Source: Malacoraja senta (taxonomy: Eukaryota). From it: 60,000 bases of DNA. A program made the position numbers and the translations under genes. Shown one piece after another: positions 15,010 to 15,476 of the stretch (position 1 is the stretch's first letter; the number at the start of each line of letters is the position of its first letter). The notes beneath the pieces are model-generated. The model did not search any database and was not told the origin of the DNA. It worked only from the letters and a program-made list of their open reading frames with translations. Location of the stretch: NCBI GenBank assembly GCA_038087875.1, contig CM075989.1, positions 19,532,001 to 19,592,000 of the forward strand, read 5' to 3'.

Positions 15010-15045
15010 GGGTCTGAAGAAGGGTCTCGACCCGAAACATCACCT
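15010..15045 (+). ncRNA. Minimal type I hammerhead-ribozyme-like motif in a Penelope-like repeat (15010-15143)
   Basis: gggt-CTGAAGA-a-GGGT-ctcg-ACCC-GAAA-ca-TC-acct: core boxes, stem II and a 4-bp stem I; no intramolecular stem III. Confidence 0.55.
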
Positions 15046-15476
15046 CTTCCATTTCTCCAGAGATGCTGCCTGATCCGCTGAGTTACTCCAGCTTTTTGCG
15101 TCTATCTTCAGATTAAACCAGCATCTGCAGTTCCTTCCTACACATGTGTACATATCTGTTGGGCTGCCGCAAGTAAGAATTTCATTGTTCCGTCTTAGTA
15201 CATGTGACACTCGTGAATCTTTTGATTAAATTGAGAATAAAGACTGTAGATTTCTAGGGCTGGTTATAAGTAAACACCCCGCTCCGAAAATCGTGGAGAT
15301 TTCCCATTCCCATCCGCTGAATCCCACTGAACTCCATTTATACCTCATGCTGCCTCGGCAAGGCCAGTAGCATAATCAAGGACGAGTCTCACCCCCGCCA
15401 CTCCCTCTTCTCCCCTCTCCCATCGGGCAGTGGGTATAGAAGTGTGAAAACGCACACCTCCATATGCAGGGACAGT

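What the first reader, a model, noticed from the sequence alone, without database searches (positions are those of the whole stretch)
15010..15143. Abundant ~130-bp repeat ending in a minimal hammerhead ribozyme core
Seen: about 25 full or partial copies in 60 kb share the terminal consensus CTGAAGA-A-GGGT-CTCG-ACCC-GAAA-CG-TC. Examples are at 403, 2386, 6791, 6903, 7202, 15014, 21592, 21816, 41286 and 52200 on +, and ~20235, 22392, 24021, 40775 and 59693 on -. It has the CUGANGA and GAAA boxes, a 4-bp stem II (the 21816 variant is GGGU-UUCG-GCCC, keeping the helix), a GUC cleavage triplet, and a palindromic ACGU in place of stem III. Established: Penelope-like elements and animal non-LTR retrozymes carry minimal type I hammerheads thought to act as dimers. 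Inference: this is a high-copy non-autonomous ribozyme-bearing retroelement. Caveat: stem I is only ~2 bp in most copies (4 bp at 15010), and no Penelope ORF is present in the window.
Basis: partly seen in the sequence, partly recalled or inferred. Interest (0 to 1): 0.7.

Follow-up and report, generated by a model that had tools for sequence, protein, structure and literature searches.

The report
Penelope end-piece repeat with minimal hammerhead
This very abundant 134-base repeat in a cartilaginous-fish genome begins with a minimal hammerhead-ribozyme motif and is most likely the truncated end piece of a Penelope-like jumping gene, a known arrangement, and most copies have already lost essential ribozyme letters.

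Summary
The repeat is real: 36 good copies cover 5.8% of the window, and 25 include the hammerhead region. The motif sits at the repeat's 5' start, not its end. Only 5 of 25 keep a complete minimal core. The flagged copy (15014) has lost the palindrome and reads AUC.

The anatomy is that of 5'-truncated Penelope-like (PLE) pseudo-LTR pieces: 3' ends fall in two groups (positions 86-107 and 118-134, the optional tail), and 11 of 13 close pairs are inverted. A longer form with a pyrimidine-rich upstream tract occurs in all four public runs laid. The same core lies on the same strand at or just behind GIY-YIG ORF ends in other animals. No PLE ORF is in the window, so the link for this family is inferred.

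Catalytic G12 decays like a neutral CpG (10 of 31 copies changed), there is no stem covariation, and no intact tandem dimer exists. The copies are likely inert. The arrangement was described in 2014, and this scan noted it before in three shark windows. One oddity remains: 25 of 36 copies start within 4 nt of the core.

The parts
15012..15143 (+). Flagged copy: full-length short form with tail (consensus positions 3-134)
15010..15045 (+). Minimal type I hammerhead motif of the flagged copy; C3 at 15014; palindrome broken, triplet AUC; 4-bp stem I partly from flank
15110..15143 (+). Optional 3' extension of about 34 bp (PLE-type tail); its inner boundary is approximate
   Evidence: bimodal 3' ends; tail described in PMC8557442 and PMC11167929
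6625..7298 (.). Cluster of five copies (-,+,+,-,+): two head-to-head pairs, one tail-to-tail pair, one abutting tandem; complete cores at 6791 and 7202
21588..21929 (.). Cluster of three copies (+,-,+); complete cores at 21592 and 21816; two copies belong to a second subfamily
23970..24171 (.). Head-to-head pair with overlapping junction; complete core at 24052 on -, no stem I
20163..20390 (-). Longer copy: about 120 nt pyrimidine-rich upstream tract (likely PLE 3' UTR) joined to the hammerhead and body
   Evidence: (contigs of all four runs bridge the junction)
22337..22700 (-). Copy with a longer pyrimidine-rich upstream tract (outer limit approximate); weak, composition-driven match to the read-through end of a PLE protein
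14243..14403 (.). Head-to-head pair that shares the short palindrome at the 5' edge; cores decayed
403..849 (.). Three copies (+,-,+); two carry the same diagnostic changes and a 95-bp inverted duplicate of flank
30520..30739 (.). Head-to-head pair, both 5'-shortened
40654..40808 (.). Tail-to-tail pair; cores decayed
41147..41416 (+). 3' fragment and a full copy 83 bp apart; U16.1 lost in the full copy
20422..20842 (-). One copy split in two by a 320-bp insertion with terminal inverted repeats

Best explanation
The 134-bp repeat begins with a minimal type I hammerhead motif and is most likely the 5'-truncated 3' end (pseudo-LTR plus optional tail) of a Penelope-like retrotransposon, left as likely inert copies. 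Shown: the motif, its place at the 5' head, two 3'-end classes about 30-35 bp apart, inverted pairs, a longer form with an upstream pyrimidine tract, and CpG decay of the core. Inferred from known PLE biology: an RT/GIY-YIG protein made by full-length copies elsewhere nicks AT-rich DNA and starts cDNA 70-100 nt behind the ribozyme. It copies the uncleaved RNA through the hammerhead and usually stops or folds back a few bases beyond it, which gives solo and head-to-head copies. The ribozyme would matter only in the master element's tandem transcript, probably with protein help. The parent is probably of the Neptune type.
For: 3' ends: 14 of 36 at 86-107, 17 at 118-134, none at 108-117, 5 at 80 or less; a 30-40 bp optional tail is a PLE hallmark (PMC8557442 passages; PMC11167929). 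13 close pairs against 2.2 expected (0 of 10,000 random placements reach 13); 7 head-to-head, 4 tail-to-tail, 2 tandem; inverted junctions with palindromes are described for PLEs (PMC3846280 passages). Contigs of all four runs laid bridge the hammerhead to the upstream tract at 20270-20331 (table 8). In 125 metagenome and genome loci picked by the core pattern, 8 ORFs in 7 loci match Pfam GIY-YIG (7 of 8 at the curated cut-off), each with the motif on the same strand at or within about 600 nt behind the ORF end. Rays and sharks carry PLE proteins related to these (P0102, P0150; 42% to the L014 ORF). Only 2 of 36 copies start near the cleavage site, in line with uncleaved RNA being the template in vitro. 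G12 changed in 10 of 31 copies, against 10 of 32 for a non-core CpG G; in run X1 G12 varies at 11.6% and its three CpG neighbours at 9-12%.
Against: No PLE ORF remnant in the window: 215 PLE-type proteins and a 60-sequence profile found none, and no whole genome was held, so this family was never seen joined to an ORF. The 5' edge is sharper than random truncation predicts: 25 of 36 copies start at positions 1-5; shared upstream sequence is 7 nt or less in 18 of 23 copies, against a median of 41 nt in the metagenome families. The match between a PLE read-through tail and the tract at 22463-22558 (E 3.5e-4) was obtained with filters off on low-complexity sequence. The metagenome loci share only the ribozyme with this repeat (model positions 3-42, best E 0.004). 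The three upstream tracts in the window resemble each other only weakly (E 0.003-0.05).
Confidence: 0.72

Rival explanations
1. The short form is a self-standing non-autonomous PLE derivative (a SINE-like mini-element). Its master copies are only about 134 bp, are transcribed from an initiator-like site at the 5' edge or cut out at a fixed site, and are mobilised in trans by the PLE protein.
For: Sharp 5' edge (25 of 36). Loose ends pile up at 20267-20270 in run X1 and summed contig depth drops about 6- to 20-fold across the edge (the tool warns that depth is no copy number). The edge reads like an initiator motif (sequence; Inr-like motifs in pLTRs: PMC3846280). At least two subfamilies share the edge. 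pLTRs can act in trans.
Against: The long form exists and ends in the same sequence, so truncation explains the short form without a separate master. Many 5' junctions are fold-backs or microhomology joins, which are made during insertion. No transcript start could be tested: all runs were contigs.
Confidence: 0.2
2. It is a non-LTR retrozyme: tandem units whose dimeric hammerheads cut out monomers that circularise and reinsert.
For: Palindromic 15.1-16.1 segment in the consensus; one abutting tandem at 6787-7032; retrozymes are reported in one chondrichthyan genome and derive from pLTRs (bioRxiv 10.64898/2026.07.22.740005).
Against: No array: TRF finds a single 2-copy unit whose second core is broken. 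Stem I is 2 bp, not the 6 bp of canonical retrozyme hammerheads. Copies do not start at the cleavage site (2 of 36). The dimer with a trans helix III is 9-11 kcal/mol above the predicted best fold for three intact copies (no tertiary contacts modelled).
Confidence: 0.05
3. The hammerhead likeness is accidental or fully vestigial even in the master element; the repeat is an unrelated SINE or MITE.
For: No Rfam match at gathering threshold in the window and no hammerhead family at E<=10 in 21500-22000; no covariation above shuffles in 23 copies; stem I almost never forms in folding (probability 0.08 or less).
Against: All 11 catalytic-core positions, the extra base before stem II, the G10.1-C11.1 pair and the palindrome are in the consensus, as defined for PLE min-HHRs. 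The same core with 60 different stem-I flank types (4 bp or more in 79 of 130 matches) lies by GIY-YIG ORFs elsewhere. Tail and inverted pairs are PLE marks.
Confidence: 0.03

Closest known systems
Minimal hammerheads (min-HHR) in pLTRs of metazoan Penelope-like elements (Cervera and De la Pena 2014, PMC4209133)
   Same: Type I order, no helix III but a palindromic 15.1-16.1 segment, one unpaired base before stem II, G10.1-C11.1; mostly dispersed single motifs from truncated PLEs; pairs 100-700 bp apart on opposite strands; reported in fish Xena, Poseidon and Neptune elements, coelacanth and Xenopus.
   Different: Helix I is 2 bp (as in D. virilis Penelope) instead of 4-5 bp, and helix II is 4 bp instead of 7-8 bp as in Schistosoma. 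No shark or skate term was found in the two supplement files searched (one file not searchable). Local density here is 36 copies in 60 kb.
Poseidon element PAc of Anolis (Frangieh et al. 2024, PMC11167929)
   Same: Hammerhead about 100 nt ahead of two RT start sites that define the tail; AT-rich targets; uncleaved RNA used as template.
   Different: In PAc the ORF starts at stem II; the consensus here has no ATG at that place and no frame open from it through the tail (sequence of the consensus). The related proteins found here carry the Neptune-type zinc-finger linker (sequences; clade label from PMC8557442 passages).
Non-LTR retrozymes (Cervera and De la Pena 2020, PMC7229834; Li, Clavereau and Pollet 2026 preprint)
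   Same: Short, non-coding, type I hammerhead, likely PLE pLTR origin, reported in one chondrichthyan.
   Different: Retrozymes are tandem arrays with intact hammerheads in consecutive units; here copies are solo or inverted and no tandem has two intact cores.

Membership tests
PLE minimal hammerhead (min-HHR) | Core boxes C3-A9 and G12-A15.1, U16.1, H17 in type I order | tested here: met
   Consensus has all; 5 of 25 copies complete; 0 in 100 shuffles
PLE minimal hammerhead (min-HHR) | Helix II with G10.1-C11.1 and an unpaired base after A9 | tested here: met
   85% of stem-II cells paired, no covariation above shuffles
PLE minimal hammerhead (min-HHR) | Palindromic segment in place of helix III | tested here: met
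   Present in consensus and 14 of 25 copies; lost in the flagged copy
PLE minimal hammerhead (min-HHR) | Helix I of 2-5 bp | tested here: inconclusive
   2 bp in 15 of 25 copies, 4 bp in one, 0-1 bp in nine; predicted pairing probability 0.08 or less
PLE minimal hammerhead (min-HHR) | Self-cleavage as dimer or with protein | not testable with these tools
   Bench assay needed; all runs laid were contigs
Penelope-like element (EN+) | RT plus GIY-YIG ORF joined to the repeat | not testable with these tools
   None in the 60-kb window; no genome held; related ORFs exist in rays and sharks without DNA context
Penelope-like element (EN+) | Optional 30-40 bp tail at the 3' end | tested here: met
   3' ends 14 at 86-107, 0 at 108-117, 17 at 118-134 of 36
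Penelope-like element (EN+) | 5' truncation with inverted or partial-tandem arrangement | tested here: met
   7 head-to-head, 4 tail-to-tail, 2 tandem pairs; longer form in four runs
Penelope-like element (EN+) | AT-rich target preference | tested here: inconclusive
   Flank AT 0.62 (5', n=25), 0.71 (tail end, n=10), 0.58 (n=14) against 0.55 background, no test applied; AT-rich loose-end consensus in X1
Non-LTR retrozyme | Tandem repeat with two or more consecutive intact hammerheads | tested here: not met
   One 2-copy tandem, second core broken; window only
Non-LTR retrozyme | Canonical type I hammerhead with 6-bp helix I and loop contacts | tested here: not met
   Helix I is 2 bp; definition from PMC4209133 and PMC7229834 passages
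Non-LTR retrozyme | Abundant circular RNA | not testable with these tools
   No raw RNA reads offered

The most novel reading that the evidence does not exclude
The 134-bp unit is a dispersed, Alu-scale non-autonomous Penelope derivative of elasmobranchs whose 5' end is fixed at the ribozyme edge, either by an initiator there or by a programmed stop or fold-back of reverse transcription at the short palindrome that overlaps the catalytic box. That would give the hammerhead sequence a second job in ending cDNA synthesis, and the huge copy number would make it the best natural data set for the open question of what PLE hammerheads do.
Probability: 0.2. Interest if true: 0.5.

Novelty: new member of a known kind. 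Interest (0 to 1): 0.2.

Why it matters
As a kind it is known: min-HHRs in PLE pseudo-LTRs and their dispersed truncated copies were described in 2014. The value is modest. It adds a cartilaginous-fish family at very high density (5.8% of this window; 125,817 contigs of one run were laid on a 326-bp stretch holding a copy), it shows that individual copies decay neutrally, and it offers one testable oddity, the sharp 5' edge 1-4 nt ahead of the catalytic core. If that edge proves to be a programmed stop or start, it would bear on how PLE insertions are completed.

Tried and rejected
Whole-genome search for ORF-linked copies: no genome held. Rfam: 0 matches at gathering in 60 kb; at E<=10 in 21500-22000 only hairpin-type matches below their gathering scores, no hammerhead family. 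I did not build a covariance model. Exact 28-nt core in metagenome contigs: 0. Two patterns in viral contigs: 0 each. The degenerate metagenome scan stopped after 13 of 64 parts. PLE ORF remnants in the window: peptide motifs, 13 ORFs from loci, 68 then 215 proteins and a profile, and a shark PLE RT (best E 2.6) all negative; the only strong hits were LINE-chimeric proteins on the CR1-type copies. Expression: no RNA holder listed; the three 'RNA?' runs are guesses and contigs, so I draw nothing on transcription from them. The outer end of the upstream tract (about 20390) was not among the 24 loose-end rows shown of 960, so the join to an ORF stop was not seen. Splice-acceptor reading of the 5' edge (pyrimidine tract plus AG, as in D. 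virilis): rejected as the cause of the edge because most copies keep the AG. Start at the cleavage site: rejected, 2 of 36. Covariation within the family: none. Look-ups of earlier findings by sequence, place and relatives were empty. Literature searches 'Penelope+skate+shark+transposable element', 'Penelope+elasmobranch+genome+repeat' and 'hammerhead+cartilaginous fish+ribozyme' listed no paper whose title or abstract start describes this family; Repbase and Dfam could not be searched, so it may well be catalogued there.

Full report
Setting. The window is repeat-rich vertebrate DNA with CR1-type LINE pieces. A LINE ORF1 at 54135-55073 has its closest named relatives in a stingray (64%) and a catshark (58%), so the host is a cartilaginous fish; 'skate or ray' is my guess. 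No whole genome was held. A 571-bp stretch around the flagged copy shares words with 20 of 24 listed public runs from seven coded organisms, none holding half of the words.

Observation. BLAST and a profile built from window copies find 39 pieces. I dropped the 3 with E above 1e-5, leaving 36 that cover 3,483 bp (5.8%) at 87% mean identity to their consensus. Twenty-five span the hammerhead region. The consensus has every feature of a minimal type I hammerhead: both core boxes, one unpaired base before a 4-bp stem II that opens with G10.1-C11.1, a palindromic 4-mer in place of helix III and a GUC triplet. A generic descriptor finds 5 complete cores against none in 100 shuffles. Two corrections: the motif occupies positions 5-32 of 134, so it is the head of the repeat; and the flagged copy has lost the palindrome and reads AUC. 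Stem I is 2 bp in 15 of 25 copies, 4 bp in one and 0-1 bp in nine.

PLE anatomy. The 3' ends are bimodal (14 at 86-107, none at 108-117, 17 at 118-134, 5 shorter), the optional 30-40 bp tail of PLEs (PMC8557442, passages), which PMC11167929 (parts 1-2 of 4) ties to two RT start sites about 100 nt behind the hammerhead. Thirteen neighbouring pairs lie within 100 bp against 2.2 expected; 7 are head-to-head, 4 tail-to-tail and 2 tandem. Head-to-head junctions with palindromes are described for PLEs (PMC3846280, passages). Laying four public runs on 20120-20445 placed 125,817 of 27.2 million contigs of X1, 8,897 of 651,327 of X15, 3,475 of 188,748 of X17 and 691 of 55,284 of X20. Contigs of all four bridge the hammerhead to the pyrimidine-rich tract upstream, so a longer form is itself a repeat. 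Summed depth falls several-fold across the 5' edge, but the tool warns that it is no copy number.

Link to an ORF (indirect). A degenerate core pattern fetched 125 loci from metagenome and genome contigs. They share only the ribozyme with this repeat. Of 130 matches, 79 have a stem I of 4 bp or more, in 60 flank types. Of 13 ORFs scanned, 8 in 7 loci match Pfam GIY-YIG, each with the motif on the same strand at or within about 600 nt behind the ORF end. A ninth (L014) matches RT-bearing PLE-type proteins, among them an Acropora protein at 56%. A manta-type ray gene model and a bamboo-shark protein carry the same kind of ORF (42% to L014). One unnamed relative (P0294) reads through into a pyrimidine-coded tail whose best window match lies just upstream of the copy at 22421 (E 3.5e-4, filters off, low complexity; weak).

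Are the copies active? Probably not. Non-CpG core positions are 94% identical to consensus against 87% for 74 other positions (permutation p 0.005), but p is 0.10 without the four edge positions, which local alignment favours, and 18 of the 74 are as conserved. G12 sits in a CpG and is changed in 10 of 31 copies, like the non-core CpG G at position 68 (10 of 32). In X1, G12 varies at 11.6% and the three neighbouring CpG letters at 9-12%. Stem pairs show no covariation above shuffles. Folding gives stem I a probability of 0.08 or less, and the trans-helix-III dimer lies 9-11 kcal/mol above the best fold for three intact copies (secondary structure only). No tandem has two intact cores. This fits published results: min-HHR monomers do not cleave and dimers cleave weakly (PMC4209133, parts 1-2 of 4), and the anole PLE ribozyme needs the protein and is not needed for insertion in vitro.

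What is left unexplained. 25 of 36 copies start at consensus positions 1-5, and only 2 start near the cleavage site. Shared upstream sequence is 7 nt or less in 18 of 23 copies (the other five are local flank duplications), against a median of 41 nt in 83 metagenome copies. Loose ends in X1 pile up at 20267-20270 (24 of 960 rows shown). The edge is a short palindrome that overlaps the first core box and also reads like an initiator. Fold-back or microhomology at this palindrome, a transcription start, or a separate short master could each explain it; I could not tell them apart.

Comparison and novelty. It works like, and meets the sequence criteria of, the PLE min-HHR class. PLE membership is met for tail and arrangement and untested for the ORF. 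It fails the retrozyme criteria in this window (PMC7229834 passages; bioRxiv 10.64898/2026.07.22.740005, parts 1 and 3 of 5 and passages; its supplements are closed and may list this chondrichthyan family). PMC2377424 and PMC8969392 were seen as passages only. Three earlier notes of this scan on shark DNA reach the same reading; they are unchecked and I had stated my reading before seeing them. Verdict: real, a new member of a known kind, interest 0.2.

Noticed in passing
window 20448-20767: A 320-bp element with terminal inverted repeats sits inside one repeat copy at a TTA site and splits it in two; it looks like a MITE.
   Followed up: no
window 306-400 and 707-801: A 95-bp piece of another repeat is duplicated in inverted orientation (92%), each time followed by a hammerhead copy with the same diagnostic changes; local inversion-duplication or flank capture.
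   Followed up: partly
window 6625-7300: Five copies of two subfamilies surround a 13-bp AT-rich motif that recurs directly and inverted, as if one target was used repeatedly.
   Followed up: partly
window 54135-58084: Near-complete CR1-type LINE with SGNH-esterase ORF1 and endonuclease-RT ORF2 in two frames; another RT piece at 35681-37135.
   Followed up: partly
window 16889-17605 and 45546-46272: An inverted pair of a 720-bp GC-rich repeat, 80% identical, not identified.
   Followed up: no
window 21640-21890: The inverted copies form long near-perfect hairpins that score against several microRNA models below threshold; they could give double-stranded RNA if transcribed.
   Followed up: no
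L124:3853-3880 and L125:2-1048: Two contigs in bacterial genome bins carry the animal PLE hammerhead, one behind a GIY-YIG ORF; likely host DNA in the bins.
   Followed up: no
L058:211-1283: Two GIY-YIG ends with hammerheads in inverted arrangement in one 1.3-kb contig, a PLE inverted structure.
   Followed up: no
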